Notes: generated from the letters alone by a model not told the origin. 64,000 nucleotides of DNA from Candidatus Campbellbacteria bacterium (GCA_002698305.1 NZWR01000005.1:2047-66046); one strand, 5' to 3'; shown: positions 5,044 through 28,143, counted from the first letter of the stretch. Numbers and translations are program-made.

Positions 5044-5437
5044 GGTTACCAAACAGTTCCTGGAAGAGCTGAAGAAAGTTCCCATCGTTCAGGTGGCTTG
5101 TGAAAAAACAGGTATCTCACGAAATAGTGTATATCGCTGGCGACGAGAGGATACCAAGTTCGCTGAAGCAATGGATGTCGCTATGACTGAGGGTGTGGCT
5201 TTTGTGAACGATATGTCAGAGTCTCAGCTTCTCACCATGATTAAAGAAAAGAACTGGTCAGCGATTAGTTTTTGGTTACGTCATCGAAATGATAACTACA
5301 AGAACAAGATTGAAGTTACAACTAGAGAAAAAGTCGATGAACTCACTCCTGAACAACAAAAGGTTGTTAAACAGGCACTCAAGCTCGCTTCACTTACGAA
5401 GCAAAAATCTATTAGAAGAATTAAACGTAAACAATAA
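5030..5437 (+). CDS. terminase small subunit-like HTH protein
   Basis: 135 aa; HTH VACEKTGISRNSVYRWRRED; start overlaps methyltransferase stop by 14 nt, same arrangement as 17065..17493; sits immediately before TerL. Confidence 0.6.
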   Translation: MKKSKVTKQFLEELKKVPIVQVACEKTGISRNSVYRWRREDTKFAEAMDVAMTEGVAFVNDMSESQLLTMIKEKNWSAISFWLRHRNDNYKNKIEVTTREKVDELTPEQQKVVKQALKLASLTKQKSIRRIKRKQ

Positions 5438-5438
5438 T

Positions 5439-6953: not shown

Positions 6954-6970
6954 AAGTTGCCAACATTTTT

Positions 6971-7007
6971 TGCTTAGCAAAAATCTATATTGCGACATAA
7001 TGTATAC
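6971..7007 (+). promoter_or_regulatory. conserved recombinase promoter block with CATAAT -10, leaderless spacing
   Basis: 6971..7013 matches 21959..22001 at 37/43 positions ungapped while flanks are unrelated; CATAAT 6996..7001, 6 nt to ATG 7008. Confidence 0.6.
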
Positions 7008-8653: not shown

Positions 8654-9178
8654 ATGTCAAAAGATAACACAACAAAAGAAAGTATTTTATCAAACGCTAA
8701 ACAGTTATTTGGACAGTATGGTTTCGCGAGCACCAGTACTCAAATGATCGCTGAAGCGGTGGGCATTAAAAAACCATCTCTCTACTACTTTTTCAAGAAC
8801 AAGGAAGCTATATATATCCATCTGCTTGAAAAAGCTATTGCAGAAGTACAAGAACTCTTCGAGGGAGAACAATATTCAAAACTCTCATTTGAAGAACGAC
8901 TCGTTATTCTTTTTAAATTCAGTAAAGACAATGGTTCGTTTATCTTTTCAGTACATACTCTGACCCCAAAGAACCTCAAACATGTTATGGAGATATCAGA
9001 GAGCATGGCTTCGGTAATGTTGAAATATCTCAAGACCCAGAAAACAAAATGTTCATCAAAAGATGCACTTACGATTATCTTTGATATTACTCAAAACTAT
9101 GCACGCCGTGCGGCTCAACAAGAAAAAATCATGAGTCCAAAACGATACGCTCAATTACTTATCCAACTACTCAGCTAA
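8654..9178 (+). CDS. TetR family transcriptional regulator
   Basis: N-terminal TetR HTH FASTSTQMIAEAVGIKKPSLYYFFKNKEAIY; precedes efflux genes. Confidence 0.85.
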   Translation: MSKDNTTKESILSNAKQLFGQYGFASTSTQMIAEAVGIKKPSLYYFFKNKEAIYIHLLEKAIAEVQELFEGEQYSKLSFEERLVILFKFSKDNGSFIFSVHTLTPKNLKHVMEISESMASVMLKYLKTQKTKCSSKDALTIIFDITQNYARRAAQQEKIMSPKRYAQLLIQLLS

Positions 9179-9182
9179 CTGT

Positions 9183-10688
9183 ATGAAAAAACTACTTACA
9201 AAAAAGAATATTCTTATCATCCTCGTTATTATTGCTGTCACTATTCTTCTTATTCAGCTTGGTGGAAAGAAAACAACATCTGCAGGAATAGAGCCTGAGG
9301 AGGTTATTACTGAAACCACTGACGTTGAAGTTATTTCTCTTGGGCTTCCTGTTGAGGAGGGTGAAAGTCTAAGCTTCCTAGCTACCGTCAGTGCCCAAGA
9401 TGAAACATCAGTTACTGCTGAGATGTCTGGAAAGGTCACCAATGTGTATGTCGAGGAAGGAGATAGTGTTCAAAAAGGACAAAAGTTATTTTCATTAAGA
9501 AATAGTGACCAAGGTATTGCCTACCAACAAGCTCAAGCGCAACTAGAAAATCAACGCATTACACTTCGTAATCTTGAAAAAGAATTTGCAGGTGAGGATT
9601 CATCAGTACAAGCTACTCTTACTGATCAACAAACCCAAGCCGTAGCCCAAGCCTACCAAAACTTCTTGAACAATGACCTTCAAGCATATCCAGAAGACGA
9701 TGCAGATCGAGAGGATGCCGTAGCACCCGTAGTATCAGGAACCTATCGAGGACTTGAAGAAGGACGATACATCATTGAAACCTATGGTTCAGCAGCTGAC
9801 TCAGGAGTATCAATTCGTCTCTCAGGACTAGAAGATGGTACGTACAGTGCATCAACAAACTTTCCAACAGAGATAGGTACACAAGGCCTCTATCTACAAT
9901 TTCCAGACAAACCAAAGAAGAACAAGACATGGGTAATTGATATTCCCAATACTCGTAGTTCAAGCTATTTGAGTGCGAAGAATGCGTATGAGGGGGCGAA
10001 AAAAGGAAAAGATCTCACATTGACTCAGTCACAAGTAACCCAAGAACAAATTGATCGACAGCGCAATGTAGTACACCAGCAAGAACTTACCGTACAACAA
10101 GCAGGTGTTGCTCTTGAAAAGACGATTATAAGAGCCCCATTTGATGGAGATCTTGTAGCTTTTGATGTAGAAATTGGATCTATTGTTTCAGGATTTTCGC
10201 CAGTTGGGACCATCAAAAGTCTTGGTGAGCTTGAACTTGAATTTTCAATTTCAGATCAAGAACGTATCTACATTCGAGAAGGTGCTGATGTATACGTAGG
10301 TGATGAAGCAATTGGTGTCGTTACCTATGTTGCTCAGTCACTTGATGGAACAACATATAAAAACAAAGTGCGTGCGTCATTGAGTAATGCAGATGATTTC
10401 ACCGAGGGAGAAACACTCACCATTATGATTACACCTGAAGTTGATGAAAATACTCACACACCAACAAGCGTAAATGGTGTCTTTTCACTTCCTATTACCG
10501 CCGTACAAATTGTAGGAAACACGCCACATATTGCTGTGATTAATGATGACGGCATCGTTACCTTGCAACCTGTTGCAACAGGCTTGTTGCTTGGCTCAAT
10601 GATTGAAGTGGTAGAGGGCCTTAGTGGAGACGAGGTTGTTATTCGTGATGCCCGCGGTATTACAAACGGACGGCAAGTGAACTATTAG
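9183..10688 (+). CDS. efflux adaptor (HlyD/MFP family) with extra central insertion
   Basis: N-terminal TM, lipoyl-like VTNVYVEEGDSVQKGQKLF, coiled coil, barrel IRAPFDGDLVAFDVEIGS; paralog at 62834. Confidence 0.8.
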   Translation: MKKLLTKKNILIILVIIAVTILLIQLGGKKTTSAGIEPEEVITETTDVEVISLGLPVEEGESLSFLATVSAQDETSVTAEMSGKVTNVYVEEGDSVQKGQKLFSLRNSDQGIAYQQAQAQLENQRITLRNLEKEFAGEDSSVQATLTDQQTQAVAQAYQNFLNNDLQAYPEDDADREDAVAPVVSGTYRGLEEGRYIIETYGSAADSGVSIRLSGLEDGTYSASTNFPTEIGTQGLYLQFPDKPKKNKTWVIDIPNTRSSSYLSAKNAYEGAKKGKDLTLTQSQVTQEQIDRQRNVVHQQELTVQQAGVALEKTIIRAPFDGDLVAFDVEIGSIVSGFSPVGTIKSLGELELEFSISDQERIYIREGADVYVGDEAIGVVTYVAQSLDGTTYKNKVRASLSNADDFTEGETLTIMITPEVDENTHTPTSVNGVFSLPITAVQIVGNTPHIAVINDDGIVTLQPVATGLLLGSMIEVVEGLSGDEVVIRDARGITNGRQVNY

Positions 10689-10690
10689 TT

Positions 10691-13600
10691 ATGTTAGATA
10701 TTTTTATTACAAAAAAGCGATTCACATGGTTTACGCTTATCTTTCTCGTTATTGTCGGACTATTTGTGATGGTAAACATCCCCAAGGAATCAATGCCAGA
10801 AATTCAAATACCTATTATTGGTGTAACCACTGCATACCCAGGTGCGTCGTCGCTAGATGTTGAGGAGCTGGTTACCAATCCTATTGAGAAACAGCTATTA
10901 CGAGGGCTTCAAGATGTAAAGGATATTAGTTCTAATTCAAATGAAGGAATCTCAAGTATTACGATAGAATTTGAAGCGTCAGTTGATATTGACCAAGCTT
11001 TGCGTGAAGTGAATGATGAGGTGGATAAAGTAAAAAATGATCTCCCGAGTGATGCACTTGATCCAACAGCTCAAGAATTTTCATTCGATGATCAGCCTGT
11101 TTTTGTAGTCTCAATCTCATCACAAGAAGCGTTTACTCAATTGAGTGACACTGCTGAATCTGTTGAAGATATTTTTCTTGATATTAATGGAGTCTCTCGC
11201 GTAGAAATTGCAGGTATTCCTGATCGTCAAATGACAATTATCGTTGATAAGAAAAATTTGAGTGCTCATAATTTAAATATCAGTGATCTCGCACGAACGA
11301 TTGGGCAAACCGATGTATCTTTTCCACTTGGCTCTATTGTGCAAGATGGTGTTGAATATAATGTGAGTGTTGATAATACCGTTGGCTCGATTGAGGATCT
11401 TGAAAATATTATTGTAACCTCAAGTTCGTCAGGTTCACCTGTCTATGTACGAGATATTGCTCGTATTGAAGACGGACTTGCTCCCTATACCTCATGGTCA
11501 CGATTGAGCACCAATGGATCACAGCCACAGCAAGCCATTACGTTTTCAATTTTCAAGCAAGTTGGTTTTGATATCACCAAGGTAACTAAAGATGCACGAG
11601 AAGCAGTTGTTGATCTACAATCAGATTTCTCTGAAATGGAATTTATTACACTCATTGATTCGGGGAATGATGTTGCAAGTGATATCACAAGCCTCACCAA
11701 CTCAGCACTTCTCACTATTCTTTTGGTAGTCATTGTGCTTTCGCTTGGTCTTGGGGTTCGAGAGTCAATTATTGCGGGAATCTCTGTGCCATTATCATTC
11801 CTGCTTTCATTTATTGGTCTTTATCTTTCAGGAAATACGATTAATTTCATCAGTCTTTTTGCTTTGATTCTCGCCATAGGATTGTTGGTGGATGCTTCGG
11901 TGGTTATTATCGAAGGGATTACCCTTGCTCGATCAAAAGGTCTTTCGCCCGACGAAGCTATTCGGGCAACACTTAAAGAATTCGCAGCTCCTGTTATTGC
12001 TGGAACCCTCACAACGCTTGTGGTATTCATTCCACTTGCAACTCTTTCAGGAGTGACAGGTCAATTCATTAAATCAATCCCAATGACTATTATTTTTGTT
12101 CTCCTTGGCTCATTGATTGTGGCCTTGATCTTTGTTCCGTTACTGAGCACTATTCGTCTTCCAAAAACAAAAGAAAGTAAATTATCTCAATGGCTTGATA
12201 GGATTGACTCAAAACGAGATGCAACCATTGAAAAGCTCAATATTTGGTATGCGAATAAATTGGAAACGTTATTGAGTACTAAAAAATATGGAAAACGACT
12301 TATTAGTGGTCTCATTGCTCTGTTTGTCATTTCCATCACACTGGTTGGAGCAGGATTAGTAAAGTCTGAATTTTTCCCAGCAGATGAATTTGATCAACTC
12401 ACTATCACAGCCGAACTACCGCAAGGTTCGCAATTGATTGATATGAGCGAAGCTCTTATTCCTGTTGAAGAGTTCTTACAAAAGTATGATTCTGTTAAGT
12501 CTTTTGTTTCTCGTATACGTCCCGCGAGTGCTGACGTGACAGTTATCTTAAAAGATACTAGTGTTGGCGATCAATCGATCGCAGACTTTCGAGCATTTTT
12601 TGCGAGCAATACAAGTCGGGCTGACTTTATCGTGACACCACCTGCAAGTGGGCCATCAGCAGGAGCTCCTTTCAGTCTTGATATCACAGGAGCTGATTAC
12701 GATACAGTAACGACAATCGCTGAAGATATTAAAGATCTTGTTGAAGGTCTTGAAGGAACGACCGATGTACAAAGTAGTTCAGCAAGCACTGCTTTGGGTA
12801 TTATTCTTGATCTTGATGTAAAGAAAGTAAAAGATGTCGGACTTGATGTAGCAACCGTATCAAGCATGGTACGAAGCTCGCTCTATGGATCTGAAGTAGC
12901 AACACTAAGCCGTAATGGTGAAGATGTTGATGTAGTGCTCGTTTCAGCTTTAAATGAAAACTACACTCAATCAGACACAACCAATCATGTATCACTTGAC
13001 GTATTACGTGCCCTACCGCTACAAACACCACAAGGAGAAATTCCACTCGGTGTCTTGATGCAAGAAGAAATCAGAGGAACGAACCCTTCTATTAAACACA
13101 CTGATGGTGATCGAGTAGTAACTATCTCAAGCTATCTTGAAGACGGTGTTATTCTTACTGATGTGATTACAGAGTTTTCATCTCAGGTTGAAACTATTGA
13201 AGGGGTTGATCAAGTGGAATGGAGTTTTGGCGGAGATGCCGAAGCGAGTGCTGAATCTGGGAAAGAGCTCATGATTGCTCTATTAGTTGGAATCTTCTTA
13301 GTCTTCGGGGTTTTGATCTTTCAGTTCAATTCAGTGCGTAATACCTTCTTTATTATCTCAGTAGTACCACTTGGTTTGATTGGTGTGATATTTGGGCTCT
13401 TTGTTTTCGGTCAAACACTTTCGTTTACGGCGATGCTCGGATTTGTTGCCTTGGTGGGAATTGTGGTAAACAACTCGATTATTTTGATTGATGTGATTAC
13501 AGGATTACAAAAAGAAGGAACACGGTCTCATAAAGAAAATGTTATTCAGGGTTCAGCTTCACGATTGCGTCCCATTCTTCTTACCACGCTCACCACAGTG

Positions 13601-13741
13601 ACTGGAATGGTGCCTCTTCTCTTTACCTCGCCCGTATGGCGACCACTGGCTCTTGCCATTATCTCAGGGCTCCTCTTTGCCGTAGTACTCACCTTATTCC
13701 TTATCCCGCTTCTGTTTTACAAGTGGGGTCGGAAAGAATAA
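10691..13741 (+). CDS. RND (AcrB/AcrD/AcrF family) efflux permease
   Basis: 1016 aa, two 6-TM bundles with large loops, typical RND N-terminus FITKKRFTWFTLIFLV and GLLVDASVVIIEG motif. Confidence 0.9.
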   Translation: MLDIFITKKRFTWFTLIFLVIVGLFVMVNIPKESMPEIQIPIIGVTTAYPGASSLDVEELVTNPIEKQLLRGLQDVKDISSNSNEGISSITIEFEASVDIDQALREVNDEVDKVKNDLPSDALDPTAQEFSFDDQPVFVVSISSQEAFTQLSDTAESVEDIFLDINGVSRVEIAGIPDRQMTIIVDKKNLSAHNLNISDLARTIGQTDVSFPLGSIVQDGVEYNVSVDNTVGSIEDLENIIVTSSSSGSPVYVRDIARIEDGLAPYTSWSRLSTNGSQPQQAITFSIFKQVGFDITKVTKDAREAVVDLQSDFSEMEFITLIDSGNDVASDITSLTNSALLTILLVVIVLSLGLGVRESIIAGISVPLSFLLSFIGLYLSGNTINFISLFALILAIGLLVDASVVIIEGITLARSKGLSPDEAIRATLKEFAAPVIAGTLTTLVVFIPLATLSGVTGQFIKSIPMTIIFVLLGSLIVALIFVPLLSTIRLPKTKESKLSQWLDRIDSKRDATIEKLNIWYANKLETLLSTKKYGKRLISGLIALFVISITLVGAGLVKSEFFPADEFDQLTITAELPQGSQLIDMSEALIPVEEFLQKYDSVKSFVSRIRPASADVTVILKDTSVGDQSIADFRAFFASNTSRADFIVTPPASGPSAGAPFSLDITGADYDTVTTIAEDIKDLVEGLEGTTDVQSSSASTALGIILDLDVKKVKDVGLDVATVSSMVRSSLYGSEVATLSRNGEDVDVVLVSALNENYTQSDTTNHVSLDVLRALPLQTPQGEIPLGVLMQEEIRGTNPSIKHTDGDRVVTISSYLEDGVILTDVITEFSSQVETIEGVDQVEWSFGGDAEASAESGKELMIALLVGIFLVFGVLIFQFNSVRNTFFIISVVPLGLIGVIFGLFVFGQTLSFTAMLGFVALVGIVVNNSIILIDVITGLQKEGTRSHKENVIQGSASRLRPILLTTLTTVTGMVPLLFTSPVWRPLALAIISGLLFAVVLTLFLIPLLFYKWGRKE

Positions 13742-14383: not shown

Positions 14384-14428
14384 ATAAGATATTTTTTGCT
14401 ATTAAGTAGCTAATGCCAGATTGTTTAT

Positions 14429-14461
14429 TACAACCCTTTTAGTGCTAGCTGTCAATGGTGA
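14429..14461. repeat. copy B of 33-nt att-like direct repeat, overlapping tRNA-Glu 3' end
   Basis: TACAACCCTTTTAGTGCTAGCTGTCAATGGTGA; last 6 nt are the TCACCA end of tRNA-Glu on the minus strand. Confidence 0.85.
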
Positions 14462-14530
14462 CCCTACGGAGAATCGAACTCCGATTTTATCCGTGAGAGG
14501 GATACGTCCTAGCCGTTAGACGATAGGGCC
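14456..14530 (-). tRNA. tRNA-Glu (anticodon CTC), CCA encoded
   Basis: Manual cloverleaf: acceptor GGCCCTA/TAGGGTC, anticodon arm TATCC-CTCTCAC-GGATA, T arm CGGAG-TTCGATT-CTCCG, 3' ACCA. Confidence 0.9.
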
Positions 14531-15351: not shown

Positions 15352-15427
15352 GTCCCTATAGTTCAATCGGATAGAACGGAAACCTCCTAAGTTTCAAATC
15401 CAGGTTCGATTCCTGGTGGGGACACCA
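15352..15427 (+). tRNA. tRNA-Arg (anticodon CCT), CCA encoded
   Basis: Manual cloverleaf: acceptor GTCCCTA/TGGGGAC, anticodon arm GAAAC-CTCCTAA-GTTTC, T arm CCAGG-TTCGATT-CCTGG, 3' ACCA. Confidence 0.9.
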
Positions 15428-15806: not shown

Positions 15807-17078
15807 ATGAAAACTATTTTCTGGACTACGGTACAAAAAACAGTTAACGAACTTGTACCACAAACTATCAACCCAAGAACCATCTCTAAATTTCAACTAG
15901 AGAAACTGAAAGCATCACTTGAGAAATTTAATCTCGTAGAGATACCCGCCATAGATTATGACGGAACTATCTTAGCAGGACATCAGCGTATCAAGGCACT
16001 TAAGCTGCTCGGACGAGGAGATGAACTTATTGATGTTCGCATTCCTAACAGAAAACTTACCAAGGAAGAATCAGACGAATATCTTATTGGAAGTAACAAA
16101 CTTGGCGGAGACTGGGATTTCGAGCTACTTAAGGATTTTGATTTCGATATGCTTGTTGATTCGGGCTTTGAGGAGATGAAACTCACAGAGTTTTGGGATA
16201 CAAAAAAAGAAGTCGAAGATGATGACTTTGACGAGCAAAAAGAACTTAAGAAAATTAAAACCCCAACAGCACAGCCTGGAGATATTATTCACCTTGGGAA
16301 ACACAAAGTATTATGCGGAGATTCAACCAATCCAGAGAATTTGAAACGATTACTCGGAGATGAAAAAGCCAGCATGATTTACTCTGATCCTGTCTACAAC
16401 ATTAACGTTGATTACGATGGAGGTATTGGTGGAAAGCAAAACTATGGTGGTGACGTATATGACACAAGAAGTGAACAAGAATACTATGATTTTCTCACTA
16501 AAGCTTTAGAAGCTTCTTTGTCTGTATCTGAAGAGAATACTCACATCTTCTATTGGTGTGATCAAGTCTACATTGGCTATCTGCAAGATATCTACCGAAA
16601 GCATGGAATAGTCAATAAACGAGTGACACTATGGTTGAAGAATAATCAGAATCCTGTTCCTTCTGTGGCTTTTAACAAGGTCTACGAACCATGTGTGTAT
16701 GGGGTCAGAGGTAAACCATATCTCAATTCAGTACTCACCGCGAACAATGAAGTTATGAATCAGGAGCTTGGTACTGGTAACGAACTCTTTGAACAGGTAA
16801 ATGACATTTGGACTGCAAAAAGATTAAGTGGGAAAGACTACGAACATGCAACGAGTAAACCAATTACATTGCATACCAAAGCTATCAAGCGATGTACTAA
16901 ACCAAATGATATTATTATTGATTCATTTCTTGGTTCTGGAAGTACCTTATTGTGTGCTGAGCAACTGGATAGGCGGGTCTATGGTTGTGAACTTGAACCT
17001 ACTTTTTGTGATTTGATTATCAAACGCTATGAGAAGATGACGGGGAAGAAGGCGATAGTGGAACATGAAGAAGTCTAA
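15807..17078 (+). CDS. ParB-like nuclease domain / DNA methyltransferase fusion (paralog)
   Basis: Colinear with 3763..5043 (motif IV at the same codon 194 in both); ParBc EIPAIDYDGTILAGHQRIKALKLLG; motif IV is SDPVYNIN; AdoMet motif IDSFLGSGST. Confidence 0.85.
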   Translation: MKTIFWTTVQKTVNELVPQTINPRTISKFQLEKLKASLEKFNLVEIPAIDYDGTILAGHQRIKALKLLGRGDELIDVRIPNRKLTKEESDEYLIGSNKLGGDWDFELLKDFDFDMLVDSGFEEMKLTEFWDTKKEVEDDDFDEQKELKKIKTPTAQPGDIIHLGKHKVLCGDSTNPENLKRLLGDEKASMIYSDPVYNINVDYDGGIGGKQNYGGDVYDTRSEQEYYDFLTKALEASLSVSEENTHIFYWCDQVYIGYLQDIYRKHGIVNKRVTLWLKNNQNPVPSVAFNKVYEPCVYGVRGKPYLNSVLTANNEVMNQELGTGNELFEQVNDIWTAKRLSGKDYEHATSKPITLHTKAIKRCTKPNDIIIDSFLGSGSTLLCAEQLDRRVYGCELEPTFCDLIIKRYEKMTGKKAIVEHEEV

Positions 17079-17493
17079 GAAATTACTTGAACAAATAGTA
17101 GAAGAACTTAGAAAGACTCCTGTTGTCTCTGTAGTATGTCAAAAATTCGGTATTGCTCGTCATACTTTTTATAGATGGAGACAAATAGACCCCGATTTTG
17201 ATCGAGAGGTTAGTGAAGCTCTTGATATCGGAAGTTTGGTTGTAAACGATATTTGTATGAGTCAGCTTATTGCATCAATTCAAAATGGGAATATGGGCTC
17301 AGTAAAATACTGGATGAGCAATAAGCACTCTGATTTTATTCGTCCGCGTAAAAAGCACCCTGAAGACACAAGCAGCAAGCTCCCGTTTAGTGGTATCAGC
17401 ATCCAAGTCGTGACAGAAAAACAAGTGTCAGATGATCCAGATGAGGTGATGTTTCCAAAAGAAAACACTATCAACGATAGTGACAACACCTAG
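17065..17493 (+). CDS. terminase small subunit-like HTH protein (paralog)
   Basis: HTH VCQKFGIARHTFYRWRQID; same 14-nt overlap with methyltransferase stop as in element 1; no TerL follows. Confidence 0.55.
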   Translation: MKKSKKLLEQIVEELRKTPVVSVVCQKFGIARHTFYRWRQIDPDFDREVSEALDIGSLVVNDICMSQLIASIQNGNMGSVKYWMSNKHSDFIRPRKKHPEDTSSKLPFSGISIQVVTEKQVSDDPDEVMFPKENTINDSDNT

Positions 17494-17735
17494 CTATTAA
17501 ATTCTGCGAGTTTCTTCTTACCCATCGGAGAATCTACAGGAATCATGTTTTTGTTCTTACATACACGGCATGCCTTATGCGTCGTTGTATGCCGCCATAT
17601 AGAATAGATAAGCCCGGGAATGATAAAGAGTAACCAAAGAATGAGTTCGAATCCTATATTTCCTTTAGTAATACTTTTTGGGTACCCAACGTTACCACAT
17701 TGAGTACATACTTGTTTTGTTCGTTTTTTAAACAT
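17490..17735 (-). CDS. split zinc-ribbon membrane protein (LITAF-like layout)
   Basis: Start moved to ATG 17735 (MFKKRTKQV); CTQC ... hydrophobic LILWLLFIIPGLIYSIW ... CRVC. Confidence 0.5.
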   Translation of the reverse strand: MFKKRTKQVCTQCGNVGYPKSITKGNIGFELILWLLFIIPGLIYSIWRHTTTHKACRVCKNKNMIPVDSPMGKKKLAEFNS

Positions 17736-17835
17736 GTTTTTGATCGGTTTTAATTTTATAAAAGTGGCGAGTCTTACAAAAGGCTCCCCACCATCGCGAT
17801 TCTCCAAAGAGAACCCATAAATGTTTCCATTTATG

Positions 17836-17881
17836 ACCGATCAAGATGACTCTGGTGAGGAGTCTTTTATACTTGATCGGT
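17836..17881. other. nested hairpin in divergent intergenic region
   Basis: ACCGATCAAG at GACTC tggtgag GAGTC ttttata CTTGATCGGT. Confidence 0.5.
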
Positions 17882-18036
17882 ATTTGGTAACCATACCTTA
17901 AATTAAGGGTTAGGTTTATTTTTTAATAGTACCGAATCGTACTGATTCAGTCTAGATAGTATATCGCTAATCATTATGTTTGCTAAGTTTAAAATTATAA
18001 ATTTATCAGATTCATTTATCTTGTTACAATCTAGTT

Positions 18037-18513
18037 ATGAAAAAAGCTAAAAGAGTAATTCTAATCATCATAATCCCACTAGTTTCAGTTATATTGATTG
18101 AATACTTATATTCTCAAAGATGGAGGCTACAAGGGTCTGAAGAAATAGATAATTATGGAGAAATAATAATTGGTAAATGGGGTACAGAATTACTCAGCAA
18201 TTCAAATAATATCTACTTATACAAATTTCAAATTGAAGAGGATGGGTCATATCGCGATATTTCCAAGCAATTTCCCACTCTTAGTTTAAGAAATGGTGGT
18301 AAAATATCAGGATATAAATCATGGTCATTAGATAACTCAAATCTTACGATAACCACTGACTTTTCTGCCGTAGGTCTTACGTCAAAAGAAACTATTTCAG
18401 TGCAAAAAGAGATTGTTTTTGCTAATAATAATTTTCTTGTTTTTAAAGAAAAAAGTAATTCTATTTTTTCTAGAATAATTCCTAGAAAACAAATATATAT
18501 TAGAGTTAATTAA
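18037..18513 (+). CDS. hypothetical N-terminally anchored protein
   Basis: 158 aa, N-terminal TM/signal helix; tandem with similar 141-aa ORF; very AT-rich. Confidence 0.5.
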   Translation: MKKAKRVILIIIIPLVSVILIEYLYSQRWRLQGSEEIDNYGEIIIGKWGTELLSNSNNIYLYKFQIEEDGSYRDISKQFPTLSLRNGGKISGYKSWSLDNSNLTITTDFSAVGLTSKETISVQKEIVFANNNFLVFKEKSNSIFSRIIPRKQIYIRVN

Positions 18514-18544
18514 GATAAAATTAGTATATGTTATACTTTCAATT

Positions 18545-18970
18545 ATGAAAATCATCAAAAAAATCATAATTTTTACTGTTTTATTGTTTTTGATAGTAAG
18601 CATCTATTCATTTAGATGGATGTTCGAACCTTCTTCTAAAGTAGAAAATTATGATGAAATATTAGTTTCTCAAAAAGGTTGGAAAAAAATTCATCCGATT
18701 TTAGGAAAAAGAAGAATTAATTGTGAGAATTTTTCTTTTGATGAAAAAAATAACCTTGAATTGTCAACTTGTTTTCCTTTACGTGGGGAGGCCAAAGGAG
18801 ATGGTATTTCTTGGTCTATTCAAGAAGATATTATCTCATTAAGTTATAAAAAACAAAATTTATTTAAAGAACCTATTTATTTCAATAGAAGTGAAAAAGT
18901 AGAAAAAATTAATTCAAACACTTTAGTATTACGAGATGGAATTCGTTTTTCTGTTTACAAAAGTTATTAA
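18545..18970 (+). CDS. hypothetical N-terminally anchored protein (tandem paralog-like)
   Basis: 141 aa, same layout as 18037..18513 (TM helix; SWS.. and L.IT / L.LS strands); terminator follows. Confidence 0.5.
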   Translation: MKIIKKIIIFTVLLFLIVSIYSFRWMFEPSSKVENYDEILVSQKGWKKIHPILGKRRINCENFSFDEKNNLELSTCFPLRGEAKGDGISWSIQEDIISLSYKKQNLFKEPIYFNRSEKVEKINSNTLVLRDGIRFSVYKSY

Positions 18971-18991
18971 AACAAGCAAAACTTGTTTTTT
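18971..18991 (+). terminator. rho-independent terminator
   Basis: AACAAG caaaa CTTGTT plus T-run. Confidence 0.6.
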
Positions 18992-19133
18992 ATTTTTGAT
19001 TTAGTAGGGTACGAAGAAATAACTTTCAAAATCAAATATATGAAATAGTAAAATATGACAAAAGTTTCAAATGGTACAAGGTACTTGGAAACGCAGAACC
19101 TTAAATTAAATTTCAAAAACTAAATACTTTAAA

Positions 19134-21911
19134 ATGAGAAAATTATTTCTTTTTATTGGGCTTTGCCTAATTTCAAATTTACTTTTTGCACAGACAGTGC
19201 ATCAAAATGACAACAATCAGATTTTAAGAATCCCTCTGGTTTTCCACATATATCACGATGGAAGTGAAGGTAATTTTACTGAATCGGAAATCAGAGGAAA
19301 TATCCCACATTTAAATGAAAATTTTAATAATGTTGACCTTTCTGAAATTGAATTACCGTATAGAAATGATGTAGCTAGTAATAATATAGAATTTTATATT
19401 CCAAATGGGATGATTTATTGGTATAACTCATCAGCTCAATATGCTCCAGGTTCAAATCAACCTTTTGATGATGCTGCTAATTATGCAGATTCGAACAACT
19501 ACTTGAATGTAGTTGTCGCAAATATTAGTGGATCTAATTGGTATGATTTTTTTACCGGTGTTAATGGTGCTGAAGGCTATTCAACAAGTATGGGAGTAGT
19601 TGTAGGCTACCAACATTTTTATTACAACGGTGATCACCCTTGGGCGGTTAATAGTAGCAATCCTACAGTACCAAGTTTTAGCACTGCACCCTTTTTATTA
19701 GCTCACGAAATAGGGCATCATTTAAGCCTCGAACATTTATGGGGTGATTTGATTGGTTGCAGTGGAGACGATGGGGTCTCTGATACGCCAAAACAAGCTG
19801 AGCCTAATGATCTAGATGATTATAATCAAACTAGTCAAAGCTGGAATAACATCGTAGATATATGTGGTCAATCTGGAGTAGATGGAAACTATGAAAATTT
19901 TATGGATTATAGCTATGCTCTTCCTTCTGGAAAAGGAATGTTTACAAATGGGCAGAAGACCAAAATGAGACATTACCTATTAGATAATGAAACTGACTTA
20001 ATTGAACAGATACAGGAAAATGATAACTGTTCTGATGCAATTAATTTAAATACAAGCTCATCAATCAATTCACCTTATTTAAAAGGTAGCGTTTATAATG
20101 CAACCTCTGAAAATTTCCCAGGAGATCCAATTTCTTGTGATAATGGTCAAGGAAGCAGTTTTTCTGGAAAAGGGGTTTGGTACAGTTTTGTAGCAGATGA
20201 AAATGTTAACTTGGTGACAGTAAAACGTGATCCAGCAAGTCAAATATTGCCAGTAATGGCTATTTATTCGGGATCAAATTGTAATAATCTTACAACTTTA
20301 ATTGATTGCGATGTAATGAATACTGGGGCTACTTTTGTAGATGCTGGTGCTAATAATTTTTTAATTGGTGAACGCTATTACGTTAGGGTTTATCATAATG
20401 ATGGATCTCCATTATCAGTAACAGATTCTCAATTTGAAATCAGAGTTATTTCTGGTGGTAACACGACTGCCAATATTATTTTTAATGATTCTGTTATTAA
20501 AGACGGCACAGGTGGTGGAGATGGCGACAGTGACGGAATAGCAGAAAATGGAGAAGAAATTGATCTTGATATTGAGTTAAAAAATACTGGACAACAAACA
20601 CTAACCAATATTTCTGCTGTACTAACTACCACAACATCTGGAATAGTTATTGATGACGATAGTGAGAGTTTTGCAAGTATATCTCCTAATCAGGAGGTGT
20701 GGAGCAATGGTGATTATGACTTTGATATTCCTTCTAGTTTTTCTGGAAGTGATATAGATTTTGAACTCGACGTTGCAACTGACCAAGGAAATTTTACGGT
20801 TACGTTTTCTTTACCAGTTCAAACAACATTTGAACCTAATCTCATTATTGATGAGGTCATCGTACATGATGGAAGATTTGAAGAAGATGGGCGAGGTGAT
20901 GGAGATAATATCCCAGAATCAGGAGAAGAGATTGATTTAAATATCAATATTAAGAACGTGGGAAACATAACTGCAGATAATGTAGAAGCATACCTTTCAA
21001 CAAATGATTCTGATATTACTATCACTGCCAATAATGTTGGCTATGCTGATATTGATGCCAATGAAATTAAAATTAGATCATCTGATTTTGATTTCGATAT
21101 TGATAACAATATGAGTAGTCATACAGTTACCTTTACGTTAAGCATGGTCGCAGATAACGGCTCTTGGTCTGAAGACTTTGATTTGTATATAGAGCGATCT
21201 AGTACCTTGGATGGTGGCGTTGATTTAAAAGTCGAAGACTACCGTGTTAAAGATGGTACTGGCGGAGGTTCTGGAAATGATGATGAACAAATAAATCCAG
21301 GAGAGTCTATTGATTTAGACGTAAAGTTGAGAAATTTTGGTTATAACGACGCAAGATATGTTAAAGGATATCTTTCTACCATTGTTTCTCCGGGTATAAG
21401 TATCACTGATGATTATGAATATTTTAGTCATATTGATTCAGGGGATGCAGAATGGGAAGACGACTTTGACTTTGATGTTCCTTCTAATTATTCAGAAAAT
21501 TTTGTAATTTTCCAACTCGATATTGAATCAGACGAAGGAGACTGGATAGATTATTTTGCAATTCCAGTTGTGTATGGATCTAACAGATCTTCTACTCAAT
21601 CAGAAGCGAAGATTAATCAAGAGGAAATAGTGAGTATCGGGAGTACAGAACTAGGTAGTAAACCTATAGTCTACCCAAACCCTTTACTTGATCGTTCTAA
21701 CCTACATCTTTTAATTAACTCAACATCTATGATTGAGATCAATCTTGTTGATATACAAGGAAGAGTGGTAAGAAAAGTTTTTTCTGGAACAAAAGAATCT
21801 GGGAAATATACCTTTCCAATTCTTGATGGTCAGACTCTTGCCGCTGGAACATATCTTTTACAAATTTCACAAAACGGAAATACGAGTACCATTAAATTGG
21901 TAAAAAATTAA
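19134..21911 (+). CDS. secreted M43/pappalysin-like zinc metalloprotease with three CARDB-like repeats and T9SS C-terminal sorting domain
   Basis: Signal peptide MRKLFLFIGLCLISNLLFAQ; HEIGHHLSLEH (19704..19736) and NFMDYS...FTNGQKTKMRHYL; three repeats around DG.GGGDGD.DGI.E.GEEIDL.I..KN.G; last 81 aa (21666..21908) IVYPNP...GTYLLQISQNGNTSTIKLVKN match the Por/T9SS CTD pattern. Confidence 0.85.
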   Translation: MRKLFLFIGLCLISNLLFAQTVHQNDNNQILRIPLVFHIYHDGSEGNFTESEIRGNIPHLNENFNNVDLSEIELPYRNDVASNNIEFYIPNGMIYWYNSSAQYAPGSNQPFDDAANYADSNNYLNVVVANISGSNWYDFFTGVNGAEGYSTSMGVVVGYQHFYYNGDHPWAVNSSNPTVPSFSTAPFLLAHEIGHHLSLEHLWGDLIGCSGDDGVSDTPKQAEPNDLDDYNQTSQSWNNIVDICGQSGVDGNYENFMDYSYALPSGKGMFTNGQKTKMRHYLLDNETDLIEQIQENDNCSDAINLNTSSSINSPYLKGSVYNATSENFPGDPISCDNGQGSSFSGKGVWYSFVADENVNLVTVKRDPASQILPVMAIYSGSNCNNLTTLIDCDVMNTGATFVDAGANNFLIGERYYVRVYHNDGSPLSVTDSQFEIRVISGGNTTANIIFNDSVIKDGTGGGDGDSDGIAENGEEIDLDIELKNTGQQTLTNISAVLTTTTSGIVIDDDSESFASISPNQEVWSNGDYDFDIPSSFSGSDIDFELDVATDQGNFTVTFSLPVQTTFEPNLIIDEVIVHDGRFEEDGRGDGDNIPESGEEIDLNINIKNVGNITADNVEAYLSTNDSDITITANNVGYADIDANEIKIRSSDFDFDIDNNMSSHTVTFTLSMVADNGSWSEDFDLYIERSSTLDGGVDLKVEDYRVKDGTGGGSGNDDEQINPGESIDLDVKLRNFGYNDARYVKGYLSTIVSPGISITDDYEYFSHIDSGDAEWEDDFDFDVPSNYSENFVIFQLDIESDEGDWIDYFAIPVVYGSNRSSTQSEAKINQEEIVSIGSTELGSKPIVYPNPLLDRSNLHLLINSTSMIEINLVDIQGRVVRKVFSGTKESGKYTFPILDGQTLAAGTYLLQISQNGNTSTIKLVKN

Positions 21912-21934
21912 ATATTAACTTAATACATAAACAT

Positions 21935-21959
21935 AACCACCTCAAATGAGGTGGTTTTT
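21935..21959 (+). terminator. rho-independent terminator after protease gene
   Basis: AACCACCTC aaat GAGGTGGTT plus T-run. Confidence 0.8.
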
Positions 21960-21995
21960 ACTTAGCAATAAATCATATTGCGACATAATATATAC
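21959..21995 (+). promoter_or_regulatory. conserved recombinase promoter block with CATAAT -10, leaderless spacing
   Basis: 37/43 match to 6971..7013; CATAAT 21984..21989, 6 nt to ATG 21996. Confidence 0.6.
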
Positions 21996-23267
21996 ATGGA
22001 AGAAATACCATTAAAATATTGTCTATACGCCAGAAAATCAACCGAAGGAGATGAAAAGCAAGCACTCTCGATTGATTCACAAATCAAAGAAATGCTCCAA
22101 ATAGCAGAGCGAGAACATTTGAACATCACAGAAATAAGAAAGGAGTCTCATTCAGCCAAAGCATCTGGAACTCGTCCTGTATTTAATGAGATATTGGAAG
22201 ATATAGATAAGGGACTTTTCAATGCTATTATCACTTGGGCACCCGATAGACTCTCTCGTAACGCAGGAGACCTTGGTCAGTTGGTAGACCGAATAGATCA
22301 AAAGAAGCTTTTAGGAATTAAAACTTTCGGACAAACCTTTACGGATTCACCAAGTGATAAATTCCTTCTGATGATTCTCTGTTCTCAGGCAAAGCTCGAA
22401 AATGATAACAAGAGCATTAATGTTAAAAGAGGGTTACGAACACGATGTGAAATGGGATTACGGCCAGCGGTACCGCCAACAGGATACATCAGTAAGGATA
22501 GTAAGACGGCTAAATGTGAAGTAGAACCAGATCCAAAGCGAGCACCTGTCATCAAACAAATATTTGAGAACATAGCGTATAAAGGATGGTCAGTAAGAAA
22601 AACTCACTCATGGCTCAAATACAGTATTGATTTTAAGACCAAGAACGATAAACACTTAAGCATAGGTAACATGTTCACTCTCGTAAGAAATACCTTCTAT
22701 TATGGACGTTTTGAGTATCCAAGAGGCTCTGGGAACTGGTATGACGGTATACATACACCAATTATCACTAAAGAACTCTTTGACCTAGTAAGTGACTCAA
22801 TTAAGAAGCACACCATGAAGACGTATGGAAAAGAATTTGCTTTTACCAAATTTATTAAATGTGCATATTGTGACTCTGGAGTTGTTGCAGATGAGAAGTT
22901 CAAAAAATTAAAATCAGGGGGCGTAAACCGACATGTATACTATCGATGCTGTAGATCTAAGGATACCAAATGTATGAATAAGGCGATTAATGAAAAAGAT
23001 CTTATTCATGAATTTTGTATGCTTGCTGATACTCTCGATATTACCAAGTTAAACTTAAATGAGAGGGTAACTAATGAGATTAAAAAATTCAAACAATTAC
23101 AGAGTATGTTTCTTGGAATTAAAAAGACATCAAACATAGATGATATTGATATCCGTAACTATATTAAATTTATACTAGAGCAGGGGAGTATGAGTGATAA
23201 AAGGTCTTTACTAAATTGTTTTACCAATGAAATTTTTTTAAGAAATAAAAAAATAATTATATTTTAA
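21996..23267 (+). CDS. large serine recombinase (paralog)
   Basis: YCLYARKSTEGDEKQALSIDSQ catalytic region, zinc ribbon CAYCDSG...YYRCC; colinear with 7008..8327. Confidence 0.9.
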   Translation: MEEIPLKYCLYARKSTEGDEKQALSIDSQIKEMLQIAEREHLNITEIRKESHSAKASGTRPVFNEILEDIDKGLFNAIITWAPDRLSRNAGDLGQLVDRIDQKKLLGIKTFGQTFTDSPSDKFLLMILCSQAKLENDNKSINVKRGLRTRCEMGLRPAVPPTGYISKDSKTAKCEVEPDPKRAPVIKQIFENIAYKGWSVRKTHSWLKYSIDFKTKNDKHLSIGNMFTLVRNTFYYGRFEYPRGSGNWYDGIHTPIITKELFDLVSDSIKKHTMKTYGKEFAFTKFIKCAYCDSGVVADEKFKKLKSGGVNRHVYYRCCRSKDTKCMNKAINEKDLIHEFCMLADTLDITKLNLNERVTNEIKKFKQLQSMFLGIKKTSNIDDIDIRNYIKFILEQGSMSDKRSLLNCFTNEIFLRNKKIIIF

Positions 23268-27722: not shown

Positions 27723-28043
27723 ATGGAAGAAAAAGATATACAACTTATTCGTGAAAATAACAAGCTATTAAAGGAATCCCTTGCTTTGTCTAAGGAGAAT
27801 GCAAAAAAGATAAAAAAGATTCATTCCAGTATCCGCAGGACTATGATTTTAAAAACAATCTATTGGTTTGTAATTATTATGGTTACTGTTTCTGCGCTTT
27901 ACTATTCAAAACCATACATTGAAGAAGCGATTGACACGTATGAAAATGTTAAAGAACAGACTGGTAAAGCCTCTGAATTAATCAACGAACCTGGCGGCAT
28001 GTTTAAGAATATTAATCTTATTGAAAAATTCTTCAGCTCATGA
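27723..28043 (+). CDS. hypothetical single-TM protein
   Basis: 106 aa, coiled N-terminus, one TM (ILKTIYWFVIIMVTVSALYY); 3 nt after kinase stop. Confidence 0.5.
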   Translation: MEEKDIQLIRENNKLLKESLALSKENAKKIKKIHSSIRRTMILKTIYWFVIIMVTVSALYYSKPYIEEAIDTYENVKEQTGKASELINEPGGMFKNINLIEKFFSS

Positions 28044-28058
28044 TAGCATGGGTCCGTT

Positions 28059-28132
28059 GCTCAGGTAGCTCAGTTGGTTAGAGCACTTGTTTGAAGCACA
28101 AGGGGTCGGCAGTTCGAATCTGCCCCTGAGCA
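28059..28132 (+). tRNA. tRNA-Phe (anticodon GAA), no encoded CCA
   Basis: Acceptor GCTCAGG/CCTGAGC, anticodon arm CTTGT-TTGAAGC-ACAAG, T arm GGCAG-TTCGAAT-CTGCC. Confidence 0.9.
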
Positions 28133-28143
28133 CATATTAAAAA

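What the first reader, a model, noticed from the sequence alone, without database searches (positions are those of the whole stretch)
19134..21911. Bacteroidota-style T9SS-sorted M43 metalloprotease as cargo in a genome that otherwise looks CPR-like
Seen in sequence:
- Signal peptide ending LLFAQ.
- Metzincin site HEIGHHLSLEH with NFMDYS and FTNGQKTKMRHYL (M43/pappalysin-like).
- Three internal repeats built around DG.GGGDGD.DGI.E.GEEIDL.I..KN.G.
- An 81-aa C-terminus (21666..21908) of the form IVYPNP...I.I.L.DI.GR.V......G.Y......L..G.YLL.I......KLVK.

Established knowledge: that C-terminal pattern is the Por/T9SS sorting domain (TIGR04183 type). T9SS machinery is known essentially only from Bacteroidota/FCB diderms.

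Inference: the core genes in this window point to a reduced, probably monoderm lineage in which a T9SS signal cannot function. Those features are short PheS and ValS, no SD sequences, and TGnTATAAT-type rather than Bacteroidota-type promoters. The gene is therefore most simply a recent horizontal acquisition on element 2. It may mark physical association with a Bacteroidota host or an element able to shuttle between the two.
Basis: partly seen in the sequence, partly recalled or inferred. Interest (0 to 1): 0.6.

Follow-up and report, generated by a model that had tools for sequence, protein, structure and literature searches.

The report
Bacteroidota-type secreted protease resident in CPR bacteria
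A marine ultra-small (CPR/Patescibacteria) bacterium carries a secreted zinc protease that still has the C-terminal "address tag" of the Bacteroidota type IX secretion system. The tag is old, conserved and always paired with small membrane-anchored proteins, so it probably does a different job here.

Summary
ORF 19134..21911 encodes a 925-aa protein with these parts:
- a Sec signal peptide;
- an M43B (mirolysin/ulilysin-like) metzincin domain;
- a Cys-containing middle domain;
- three ~125-aa repeats;
- a C-terminal 81-aa T9SS type-A sorting domain, above the curated cut-offs and with the predicted fold of solved T9SS CTDs.

The host is CPR. The window is a TARA MAG contig labelled Candidatus Campbellbacteria. 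ValS relatives are all Patescibacteria. The junctions recur at 99.96-100% identity in independent assemblies, so chimerism is excluded.

The gene lies in a tRNA-flanked, recombinase-rich variable island. It is not a recent import from Bacteroidota.
- Bacteroidota relatives share at most 34% identity, and only in the M43 domain.
- The gene belongs to a tiny family of five clusters. One other member sits in a Saccharibacteria-labelled MAG.
- The CTD is under purifying selection (dN/dS about 0.17).
- Codon usage matches the host core genes.

Recent exchange did occur, but between CPR lineages. A 1.8-kb block is 97-100% identical to a sister lineage, while the rest of the gene has dS about 1.7.

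New here: in 5 of 5 loci the protease follows 1-3 genes of an unannotated family of small membrane-anchored proteins, an arrangement like potempin/KLIKK.

Absence of T9SS machinery could not be tested genome-wide.

The parts
19134..21911 (+). Gene for the 925-aa M43B metalloprotease with T9SS-type CTD (NCBI MAQ77340.1, annotated 'hypothetical protein')
   Evidence: ORF. Pfam and NCBIfam hits. Exact match to the NCBI record.
19134..19193 (+). Sec signal peptide MRKLFLFIGLCLISNLLFAQ, with Gln at the predicted +1 position
   Evidence: Read from the translation. The same ...A-Q ending is seen in most Bacteroidota M43 genes; for example L025 ends ...GNLLFAQN. No signal-peptide predictor was available.
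19206..20018 (+). M43B catalytic domain. Zinc site HEIGHHLSLEH at 19704-19736 and Met-turn NFMDYS at 19896-19913. Only about 10 residues separate the signal peptide from the first strand, so no propeptide is evident.
   Evidence: Pfam PF05572, 36.9 bits. Alignment to mirolysin and pro-mirolysin. Coordinates.
20019..20453 (+). Cys-containing middle domain, conserved in all five family members. P0003 carries a weak Pfam GBD_T9SS_assoc hit here.
   Evidence: Alignment A1. P0205 sequence. Pfam note for P0003.
20454..21581 (+). Three ~125-aa CARDB/DUF11-like beta-sandwich repeats: 20454-20831, 20832-21221 and 21222-21581
   Evidence: Self-BLASTP E 1e-12 to 1e-23. Sub-threshold CARDB/DUF11 hits and TIGR03900 region, E 5.8e-12.
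21582..21665 (+). Ser/Thr/Lys-rich linker before the CTD
   Evidence: Sequence read directly. It is the least conserved segment against the sister lineage, at 31% aa identity.
21666..21908 (+). T9SS type-A C-terminal sorting domain (81 aa), ending at the protein's C-terminus
   Evidence: PF18962 34.2 bits and TIGR04183 44.6 bits. AF2 pLDDT 93.9, best PDB folds are the mirolase CTD and the NucA CTD in the SprA-PorV complex. dN/dS 0.17.
21935..21956 (+). Terminator-like hairpin (9-bp stem, then a T run) directly after the protease stop codon. Homology to the sister lineage ends here.
18545..18970 (+). w141: small N-terminally membrane-anchored protein. It is a member of an unannotated family always found upstream of this protease family.
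   Evidence: 98.6% aa identity to the sister-lineage copy.
18037..18513 (+). w158: paralog of w141 (NCBI MAQ77338.1). It has a conserved TM helix plus a YSQRWRL juxtamembrane motif.
18355..20160 (+). Block 97-100% identical to the sister lineage (L012/L072). It covers the 3' end of w158, w141, the signal peptide and M43. The intergenic stretch 18962-19138 is only about 80% identical.
21978..23267 (+). Large serine recombinase Rec2, immediately downstream. Its conserved upstream region starts at 21955.
   Evidence: NCBIfam CcrB/XisF-like hits. Repeat D3. 81% aa ortholog at the same locus in L016.
15807..17493 (+). N6/N4 DNA methyltransferase (15807-17078) plus a 142-aa HTH / small-terminase-like protein (17065-17493). 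Together they form the left part of the island and parallel 3763-5437.
15352..15427 (+). tRNA-Arg(CCT), at the left edge of the variable region
28059..28133 (+). tRNA-Phe(GAA). Synteny with the sister lineage (ValS side) resumes at 27723-28133.

Best explanation
The gene encodes an exported M43B zinc metalloprotease related to mirolysin and ulilysin. It belongs to a small protease family that is resident in Patescibacteria (CPR).

Shown:
- The domain order is Sec signal peptide, catalytic domain, Cys-containing middle domain, three CARDB-like repeats, linker, and a T9SS type-A CTD at the extreme C-terminus.
- The host contig is CPR and is not chimeric.
- The family has five deeply diverged clusters.
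- In every locus the gene is preceded by 1-3 genes of a small protein family predicted to be N-in, membrane-anchored and extracytoplasmic.
- The CTD and repeats evolve under purifying selection.
- A 1.8-kb block was exchanged recently between two CPR lineages. The module sits in different tRNA-proximal variable regions in the two lineages.

Inferred:
- The ancestor was a Bacteroidota T9SS cargo protease (M43 + CTD + ...AQ signal peptide) acquired long ago. It then spread within CPR as island cargo.
- A cell with a single membrane needs only Sec export to place the enzyme outside. The CTD therefore no longer serves as a T9SS signal but has been kept for another role.
- The most likely role is docking, retention or regulation at the cell surface.
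- The co-encoded anchored proteins may act as tether and/or cognate inhibitor. This would parallel the potempins encoded directly upstream of the T9SS proteases of Tannerella forsythia.
- The lack of a propeptide fits the need for an external inhibitor.
- The enzyme would digest host, prey or environmental proteins for an auxotrophic epibiont.
For: Architecture.

CTD fold: AF2 pLDDT 93.9. The top PDB matches are 8qb1 (mirolase CTD) and 8glk_D, 8gl6_D and 8gl8_D (CTDs bound to the T9SS translocon).

CPR host:
- NCBI label Candidatus Campbellbacteria for the protease and for RND, PheT and AtpD on one 143-kb contig.
- ValS relatives are Patescibacteria only.

Not chimeric:
- L001 is 100% identical over 22.8 kb and includes ValS.
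- L002 and L003, from other assemblies, are 99.96-99.99% identical across the MTase-protease-recombinase stretch.
- The join at tRNA-Ile is confirmed by L062 and L063.

Old CPR family:
- P0002 is 70% identical, P0003 37%, P0004 31% full-length.
- P0004 is on a MAG labelled Candidatus Saccharibacteria. It was the only full-length hit among 185,579 species genomes; the other 36 hits were Bacteroidota and M43-only.
- P0205 is a fifth member, found through a family CTD profile among 1.84 billion representatives at 84 bits. Generic CTDs start at 66 bits.
- The five M43 domains are monophyletic in an NJ tree of 68.

CTD constraint:
- dN/dS is 0.17 at dS 1.6.
- The CTD is conserved in all members and ends at the C-terminus.

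Native composition: codon-usage distance to core genes is 0.118, within the core range of 0.096-0.165.

Linked small proteins:
- Present upstream in the window, L012/L072, L011, L069/L070 and L071.
- Absent from 36 Bacteroidota M43 loci.

Recent intra-CPR exchange:
- The signal-peptide + M43 segment has dS 0.06, against about 1.7 for the rest of the gene.
- RND on the same sister contig is only 69% nt identical.

Bacteroidota ancestry: M43 + CTD is common there. The signal peptide ends NLLFAQ, as in the Flavobacteriales locus L025.

Potempin precedent: PMC9890683. Bacteroidota are recurrent gene donors to Patescibacteria: PMC12455944.
Against: - Absence of T9SS and of an outer membrane was not verified for the whole MAG. 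Only the 64-kb window and about 40 kb of related flanks were inspected.
- The role of the CTD is inferred only from its conservation.
- The small proteins have no detectable similarity to potempins. The best PDB profile hit is BT_0869 at E 0.046.
- Their AF2 model failed, with pLDDT 40.
- A 163-bp spacer with an A/T-rich hairpin and T run separates w141 from the protease, so co-transcription is uncertain.
- dS is saturated, so dN/dS values are approximate.
- The CTD model used an alignment dominated by Bacteroidota CTDs, so the fold match is not independent of the sequence match.
- The taxonomy of loci L069 and L071 is unknown.
- Within-family M43 identity (25-37%) is no higher than identity to Bacteroidota M43s. 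Family monophyly therefore rests on the shared architecture, the CTD subtype, the gene neighbourhood and an unbootstrapped NJ tree.
Confidence: 0.55

Rival explanations
1. The CTD is a passive structural leftover. It is kept because the beta-sandwich helps folding or stability, or simply acts as one more Ig-like spacer. The upstream small membrane proteins are functionally unrelated neighbours. The protein is just a Sec-secreted soluble protease.
For: The CTD fold is a generic 7-strand beta-sandwich, also hit by FlgD Ig-like and other Ig-like domains. There is no evidence of interaction with the small proteins. A terminator-like hairpin lies between w141 and the protease.
Against: The CTD sits at the exact C-terminus in all five members and keeps all the T9SS motifs (PNP, G.Y, K-x-hydrophobic tail) after divergence to 25-37% identity. 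The linkage to the small-protein family holds in 5 of 5 loci across very different genomic contexts, and in 0 of 36 Bacteroidota loci.
Confidence: 0.2
2. The CTD is a working T9SS signal. Either this CPR lineage has an unrecognised T9SS-like apparatus, or the protein is handed to a Bacteroidota host whose T9SS exports and anchors it on the host surface. The second option is the reader's 'host association' idea taken further.
For: The CTD is under purifying selection and retains every T9SS motif. The signal peptide has the Bacteroidota-type A-Q cleavage context. Bacteroidota are frequent gene donors and co-occurring taxa for Patescibacteria (PMC12455944). The whole genome was not checked.
Against: No T9SS component and no outer-membrane gene was found among the ORFs that gave family hits. 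The protease is the only CTD-bearing ORF in 64 kb, whereas Bacteroidota loci of 20 kb hold up to 14. No route into a host periplasm is known for CPR proteins. No paper in the library links T9SS to CPR.
Confidence: 0.1
3. One reading: a recent horizontal acquisition from Bacteroidota on a mobile element, with a non-functional relic CTD.
For: The gene lies between MTase/TerS-like genes and a serine recombinase, in a tRNA-flanked variable region. M43 + CTD is typical of Bacteroidota.
Against: At most 34% identity to any Bacteroidota protein, and only in M43. There are deep family members in other CPR-labelled genomes. Codon usage is like the core genes. CTD dN/dS is 0.17. The recombinase is conserved at the same locus in the sister CPR lineage.
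Confidence: 0.07
4. Assembly chimera or bin contamination: a Bacteroidota fragment joined to a CPR contig.
For: None was found. In sample ERZ27286530 the ATP synthase region lies on another contig.
Against: Identical junctions occur in at least three independent assemblies. The split in ERZ27286530 is explained by an ICE inserted at tRNA-Ile in that strain, and two other assemblies confirm the window's join. The neighbouring small-protein genes are CPR-specific.
Confidence: 0.01

Closest known systems
Mirolysin (Tannerella forsythia KLIKK peptidase, MEROPS M43B) with its potempin PotD
   Same: - It is the best solved sequence relative of the catalytic domain: E 7e-17, with HExxHxxxxxH followed by H(I/L)WGD and the (F/Y)MDY Met-turn.
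- Both have a Sec signal and a C-terminal T9SS CTD.
- In both, the protease gene lies directly downstream of gene(s) for small (about 100-160 aa) membrane-anchored proteins whose N-terminal targeting region is far more conserved than the rest (PMC9890683).
   Different: - No propeptide or cysteine switch is evident here.
- This protein has an extra middle domain and three CARDB-like repeats.
- The host is a CPR bacterium.
- The upstream proteins carry a TM anchor rather than a lipoprotein signal. They show no detectable similarity to potempins and their fold is unknown.
- A 163-bp spacer replaces the overlapping or near-adjacent (5 bp or less) gene arrangement in T. forsythia.
Bacteroidota M43-PKD-CTD proteases (for example P0010, 'M43 family zinc metalloprotease [Bacteroidia bacterium]', about 700 aa)
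   Same: M43 domain (26-34% identity), a ...AQ signal peptide, and a type-A CTD at the C-terminus.
   Different: They have PKD domains instead of the middle domain plus CARDB-like repeats. They have no upstream small-TM gene. They reside in T9SS-bearing diderms.
T9SS type-A C-terminal sorting domain (TIGR04183 / PF18962)
   Same: The sequence scores above both curated cut-offs, the position is at the extreme C-terminus, the conserved motifs are present and the predicted fold matches.
   Different: The family subtype has extra invariant residues (S..LH, FSG) and separates from generic CTDs by more than 55 bits. The genomic background is not known to have a T9SS.
Ulilysin (Methanosarcina acetivorans, M43B prototype)
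   Same: Catalytic domain homology, E 5e-14 to 2e-12.
   Different: Ulilysin has a propeptide and no CTD or repeats.
CARDB/DUF11-type repeats of myxobacterial secreted peptidases (TIGR03900 MXAN_5808 family)
   Same: Repeats 1-2 match positions 570-763 of that model, E 5.8e-12.
   Different: The match covers the repeat region only and is far below the family cut-off. The catalytic class is different.

Membership tests
Peptidase family M43B (pappalysin/ulilysin-type metzincins) | Profile match to the M43 catalytic domain above the curated threshold | tested here: met
   PF05572 scores 36.9 bits against a cut-off of 23. Mirolysin E 7e-17 and ulilysin E 5e-14.
Peptidase family M43B (pappalysin/ulilysin-type metzincins) | Extended zinc-binding motif HExxHxxxxxH plus a downstream Met-turn | tested here: met
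   HEIGHHLSLEH at aa 191-201 and NFMDYS at aa 255-260. They align to mirolysin HEVGHWLDLRH and NYMDYT. They are invariant in the four-member alignment.
Peptidase family M43B (pappalysin/ulilysin-type metzincins) | Proteolytic activity | not testable with these tools
   Needs expression and assay.
T9SS type-A CTD cargo protein | C-terminal domain matching TIGR04183 / PF18962 above the cut-off, located at the extreme C-terminus | tested here: met
   44.6 bits against 23, and 34.2 bits against 27, over aa 846-925 of 925.
T9SS type-A CTD cargo protein | Beta-sandwich fold like solved CTDs | tested here: met
   AF2 pLDDT 93.9. Top PDB hits are 8qb1 and 8glk_D. Caveat: the alignment used was mostly Bacteroidota CTDs.
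T9SS type-A CTD cargo protein | N-terminal Sec signal peptide | tested here: met
   The n-h-c pattern MRK / LFLFIGLCLISNLLF / AQ was read from the sequence. No predictor was run.
T9SS type-A CTD cargo protein | T9SS machinery (SprA, PorV, PorU, GldKLMN) encoded in the same genome | tested here: inconclusive
   None was found among about 56 of the window's roughly 60 genes scanned with Pfam/NCBIfam, nor in the called genes of flanking loci. The rest of the MAG could not be read with these tools.
T9SS type-A CTD cargo protein | CTD removal by PorU and attachment to anionic LPS | not testable with these tools
   This is an experimental question.
KLIKK-peptidase/potempin system | Small membrane-anchored protein gene immediately upstream of the protease gene, conserved as a pair | tested here: met
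   5 of 5 family loci have it, and 0 of 36 Bacteroidota M43 loci do.
KLIKK-peptidase/potempin system | Bicistronic operon with stop/start overlap or a gap of 5 bp or less | tested here: not met
   The spacer is 163 bp and contains a hairpin plus T run. Transcription was not measured.
KLIKK-peptidase/potempin system | Lipoprotein signal and a potempin beta-barrel fold (OB or 8-stranded) | tested here: inconclusive
   The proteins have a TM anchor without a lipobox. The AF2 model was unusable, with pLDDT 40. The profile has no potempin hit in the PDB.
KLIKK-peptidase/potempin system | Specific inhibition of the linked peptidase | not testable with these tools
   This is a biochemical question.
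Patescibacteria (CPR) genome | Core genes group with Patescibacteria | tested here: met
   ValS: every one of the 120 listed relatives that carries an organism name is Patescibacteria, at 56-77% identity, most of them of the same ~730-aa length. The NCBI label is Candidatus Campbellbacteria. aaRS genes are short.
Large-serine-recombinase mobile island | Recombinase plus identifiable att repeats bounding the cargo | tested here: inconclusive
   The recombinase is present. No att-like repeat was found for the region from tRNA-Arg to tRNA-Phe. Variability against the sister lineage is shown.

The most novel reading that the evidence does not exclude
The conserved T9SS-type CTD is still a functional address signal in CPR biology. 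Two versions are possible.

(a) The epibiont delivers the protease to a Bacteroidota host, whose own T9SS then exports and anchors it. This would be effector hijacking of a host secretion system.

(b) The co-encoded small membrane-anchored proteins form a previously unknown CPR-specific receptor/tether system that recognises the CTD. This would be a minimal, T9SS-independent use of the CTD in a monoderm.
Probability: 0.1. Interest if true: 0.85.

Novelty: new variant of a known kind. Interest (0 to 1): 0.5.

Why it matters
T9SS sorting domains are treated as markers of Bacteroidota/FCB diderms and as meaningless elsewhere. Here one has been kept by selection in a lineage that, on current knowledge, has no outer membrane. 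It is also tied to a private family of small anchored proteins.

If that holds, it gives two things:
- a concrete, testable candidate for how ultra-small CPR bacteria display or control a secreted protease at their surface, or at a host's surface;
- a natural experiment on what a T9SS CTD can do without a T9SS.

It also shows that Bacteroidota-derived genes can become long-term, mobile, intra-CPR cargo. This matters when such genes are used to infer CPR hosts. In NCBI the protein is simply 'hypothetical protein'.

Tried and rejected
- CTD-only search in the word-indexed protein database returned nothing: 4 candidates, none significant. That search was wasted. The exhaustive HMMER search with a family CTD profile replaced it.
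The 2-sequence run gave pLDDT 40, so no fold search was run on it.
- The metagenome-contig scan found no further full-length family member. The viral-contig scan found none at all.
- Literature searches for T9SS or Por_Secre_tail in CPR/Patescibacteria found nothing relevant.
- The LOOT RNA is absent from the related protease loci, so it was dropped as a part of the module.
- No att-like repeats were found for the island holding the protease.
- Names for the best non-family CTD hits were uninformative.
- The Gln+1 signal-peptide rule was considered as proof of Bacteroidota origin and down-weighted. Several other exported proteins of this window also have A/S-Q.
- Compositional anomaly was rejected as an HGT signal. 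GC3 is 0.216, at the low end of the core range, and codon usage lies within that range.
- The absence of SD motifs does not discriminate. To my knowledge it is also typical of Bacteroidota.


Full report
**1. The observation**

ORF 19134..21911 (+) encodes 925 aa.
- Pfam reports Peptidase_M43 at aa 119-282 (36.9 bits, cut-off 23).
- Pfam reports Por_Secre_tail at aa 846-922 (34.2 bits, cut-off 27).
- NCBIfam TIGR04183 gives 44.6 bits against a cut-off of 23.
- Against solved structures, the catalytic domain is closest to mirolysin of Tannerella forsythia (E 7e-17) and to ulilysin.
- The three repeats span aa 441-566, 567-696 and 697-816. They are 34-41% identical to each other, with E 1e-12 to 1e-23. 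They are of the CARDB/DUF11 kind.
- An AlphaFold model of the last 88 residues is confident (pLDDT 93.9).
- Its best PDB matches are T9SS CTDs: the mirolase CTD 8qb1, and the NucA and RemA CTDs bound to the SprA-PorV translocon (8glk_D, 8gl6_D).
- The alignment used for that model was mostly Bacteroidota CTDs, so this fold result is not independent of the sequence match.

**2. The genome**

The exact protein is NCBI MAQ77340.1, 'hypothetical protein [Candidatus Campbellbacteria bacterium]', on a 143-kb contig. That contig also carries the window's w158, RND, PheT and AtpD. The taxon lies in the Parcubacteria group of Patescibacteria.

Independent support:
- ValS (732 aa) has only Patescibacteria among its named relatives, and nearly all listed relatives are of the same truncated length.
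- ValS, PheS and PheT are short relative to their profiles.
- Shine-Dalgarno motifs are essentially absent, 1 of 56 genes. To my knowledge this is also true of Bacteroidota, so it does not discriminate.
- No T9SS or outer-membrane component appears among the window's genes.
- The protease is the only CTD-bearing ORF in 64 kb. Bacteroidota loci of 20 kb contain up to 14.

**3. Chimerism**

- The identical protease is on at least 11 contigs.
- L001, from a 114-kb contig, is 100% identical to the window over 22.8 kb, from the RND pump to ValS.
- L002 and L003, from two other assemblies, are 99.96-99.99% identical across methylase, protease and recombinase.
- In one sample the ATP-synthase side lies on a different contig. 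In that strain an integrative conjugative element (tyrosine integrase, TrwB/TraG-like genes) is inserted at tRNA-Ile near 46.0 kb. Two other assemblies reproduce the window's join.
- Chimerism is therefore excluded.

**4. Relatives**

Among 5.8 billion clusters, only three other proteins share the full architecture: P0002 (70%), P0003 (37%) and P0004 (31%). Everything else matches the M43 domain alone at about 30% and is Bacteroidota wherever it is named.

In one genome per species (185,579 species), the only full-length hit is P0004, on a MAG labelled Candidatus Saccharibacteria. The other 36 hits are Bacteroidota and M43-only. JGI metagenome contigs and IMG/VR add nothing.

A profile of the four family CTDs was searched exhaustively against 1.84 billion representatives.
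- It recovers the family at 122-140 bits.
- It then finds one new member, P0205, at 84 bits.
- A continuum of 21,546 generic CTDs (E up to 0.001) begins at 66 bits.
- P0205 has the same signal peptide type, M43 domain, middle domain and CTD subtype, but carries a Big_9 domain instead of the three repeats.

The five M43 domains form one clade in an NJ tree of 68 sequences. They are only 25-37% identical to each other. The family is old.

**5. Selection and mosaicism**

The comparison is with the sister-lineage gene on L012.
- The signal peptide plus M43 segment is 98.6% nt identical, with dS 0.06.
- The repeats, linker and CTD have dS about 1.6-1.9.
- dN/dS is 0.15-0.33 across the repeats and 0.17 for the CTD.
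- The near-identical block runs from about 18355 to 20160, with sharp edges.
- Oddly, the intergenic stretch 18962-19138 is only about 80% identical.
- On the same sister contig the RND pump is only 69% nt identical.
- The closest ValS, from the same sequencing project, is 77% aa identical.

A 1.8-kb piece was therefore exchanged recently between two CPR lineages. The 3' half, including the CTD, has diverged for a long time under constraint. Codon usage of the protease (distance 0.118) lies inside the range of core genes (0.096-0.165). GC3 (0.216) is at the low end of that range.

**6. Genomic context**

- Upstream lie tRNA-Arg, a DNA methylase, a small-terminase-like HTH protein, an 81-aa membrane protein preceded by a LOOT RNA, and then w158 and w141.
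- Downstream lie a terminator-like hairpin and a large serine recombinase.
- The recombinase has an 81% aa ortholog at the same place, near tRNA-Phe and ValS, in the sister lineage. The cargo next to it differs there.
- In the sister lineage the protease module follows tRNA-His. It is followed either by TetR-MFP-RND (L012) or by Fic-CsoR-HMA genes (L072).
- P0205 lies next to two tyrosine recombinases.
- The module is therefore cargo of variable, tRNA-proximal islands, and its partners are CPR-resident.
- No att repeats could be defined for this island.

**7. The new element: a linked small-protein family**

w158 and w141 are paralogs. Each has a basic N-terminus, one TM helix and a conserved YSQRWRL-type juxtamembrane motif. 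The remaining 110-130 residues are predicted, by the positive-inside rule, to be extracytoplasmic.

- Members of this family lie immediately upstream of the protease in all five loci: two copies in the window, three in L012/L072, three in L011, and one each in L069/L070 and L071.
- No member was detected in the 36 Bacteroidota M43 loci fetched, and none of those loci shows a consistent small upstream gene.
- The family has no Pfam match.
- Its best PDB profile hit is marginal: BT_0869, E 0.046.
- Its AlphaFold model failed.

The closest known arrangement is the KLIKK-peptidase/potempin system of T. forsythia.
- There, each T9SS protease gene, including the M43 enzyme mirolysin, follows a gene for a 98-132-residue membrane-anchored inhibitor.
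- The targeting peptide of those inhibitors is much better conserved than the mature part (PMC9890683).
- The present protease has almost no sequence between the signal peptide and the catalytic core. It therefore lacks the propeptide that keeps mirolysin latent, which makes a separate inhibitor or tether plausible.
- This is inference, not a result.

**8. Mechanism proposed**

Sec export places the enzyme outside a single-membrane cell. The repeats act as a stalk or adhesive region. The CTD has been freed from T9SS and retained by selection. It serves in surface retention or regulation, possibly through the co-encoded anchored proteins. The enzyme provides peptides from host, prey or dissolved proteins.

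The ancestry is a Bacteroidota T9SS cargo. M43 + CTD is common there, and the signal peptide ending NLLFAQ is nearly the same as in a Flavobacteriales homolog. Other exported proteins of this window also show A/S-Q, so that last point is weak. Bacteroidota have been reported as relatively frequent gene donors to Patescibacteria (PMC12455944).

**9. Verdict**

- The CPR assignment is correct.
- 'Recent acquisition from Bacteroidota' is not supported. An ancient acquisition followed by residence and recent exchange within CPR fits the data.
- Whether any T9SS exists in the genome remains untested.
- I found no paper linking T9SS sorting domains to CPR.
- I rate it a new variant of a known kind, of moderate interest.

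Noticed in passing
window 17798-17916 (-): Full-length match to the Rfam LOOT RNA motif (RF03000): 75.8 bits against a gathering score of 46.4. It lies directly upstream of an 81-aa zinc-ribbon/TM protein gene (17490-17735, -). This places the orphan motif in a CPR-labelled genome. It is absent from the related protease loci.
   Followed up: partly
window 813-854 and 14424-14465: A 42-nt direct repeat (90% identical) overlaps the 3' end of tRNA-Glu(CTC) (14456-14530, -). It brackets a 13.6-kb island. The island carries a CBASS-like cyclase (1528-2445), a methylase, a TerS-like protein, a large terminase (5289-6953), a serine recombinase (6990-8327), TetR-MFP-RND efflux genes (8654-13741) and an FMN reductase.
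   Followed up: partly
window 3763-8327 versus 15807-23267: Two parallel modules of methylase, TerS-like HTH protein, cargo and serine recombinase. The recombinase genes are about 68% nt identical and their upstream 47 nt are 87% identical. In the first module the terminase occupies the cargo position; in the second the protease module does.
   Followed up: partly
L061 7076-12780 (strain variant of window near 46.0 kb, next to tRNA-Ile 45993-46069): In assembly ERZ27286530 an integrative element is inserted after tRNA-Ile. It carries a tyrosine integrase, two TrwB/TraG-like coupling proteins, DUF7222 and RadC. Other assemblies lack it.
   Followed up: partly
window 18962-19138: The intergenic/promoter region between w141 and the protease is only about 80% identical to the sister lineage. 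The coding sequence on both sides is 97-100% identical. Either there were two separate conversion tracts or this is a fast-evolving regulatory region. It is unexplained.
   Followed up: no
window 9183-13741: An RND efflux permease (1016 aa) with a membrane-fusion adaptor and a TetR regulator, but no outer-membrane factor gene nearby. This is unusual cargo for a CPR genome. An ortholog in the sister lineage is 69% nt identical.
   Followed up: no
window 24008 and 15175/16141: Contigs from two independent assemblies (L002, L003) both end exactly at window 24008. This suggests a strain-variable junction inside the island, just after the recombinase.
   Followed up: no
window-wide gene starts, for example 18037, 18545, 21996, 48966: Genes lack Shine-Dalgarno motifs (1 of 56). 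Several have TAnnnT-like boxes within about 6-12 nt of the start codon, for example TACAAT before 18037 and TATACT before 18545. This hints at leaderless or very short-leader mRNAs. It was not quantified.
   Followed up: no
window 5-751: A 248-aa ORF near the left edge of the window matches only the C-terminal part of multicopper oxidases (CueO-like, E 4e-15). It is oxidative-stress or copper-related cargo next to island 1.
   Followed up: no
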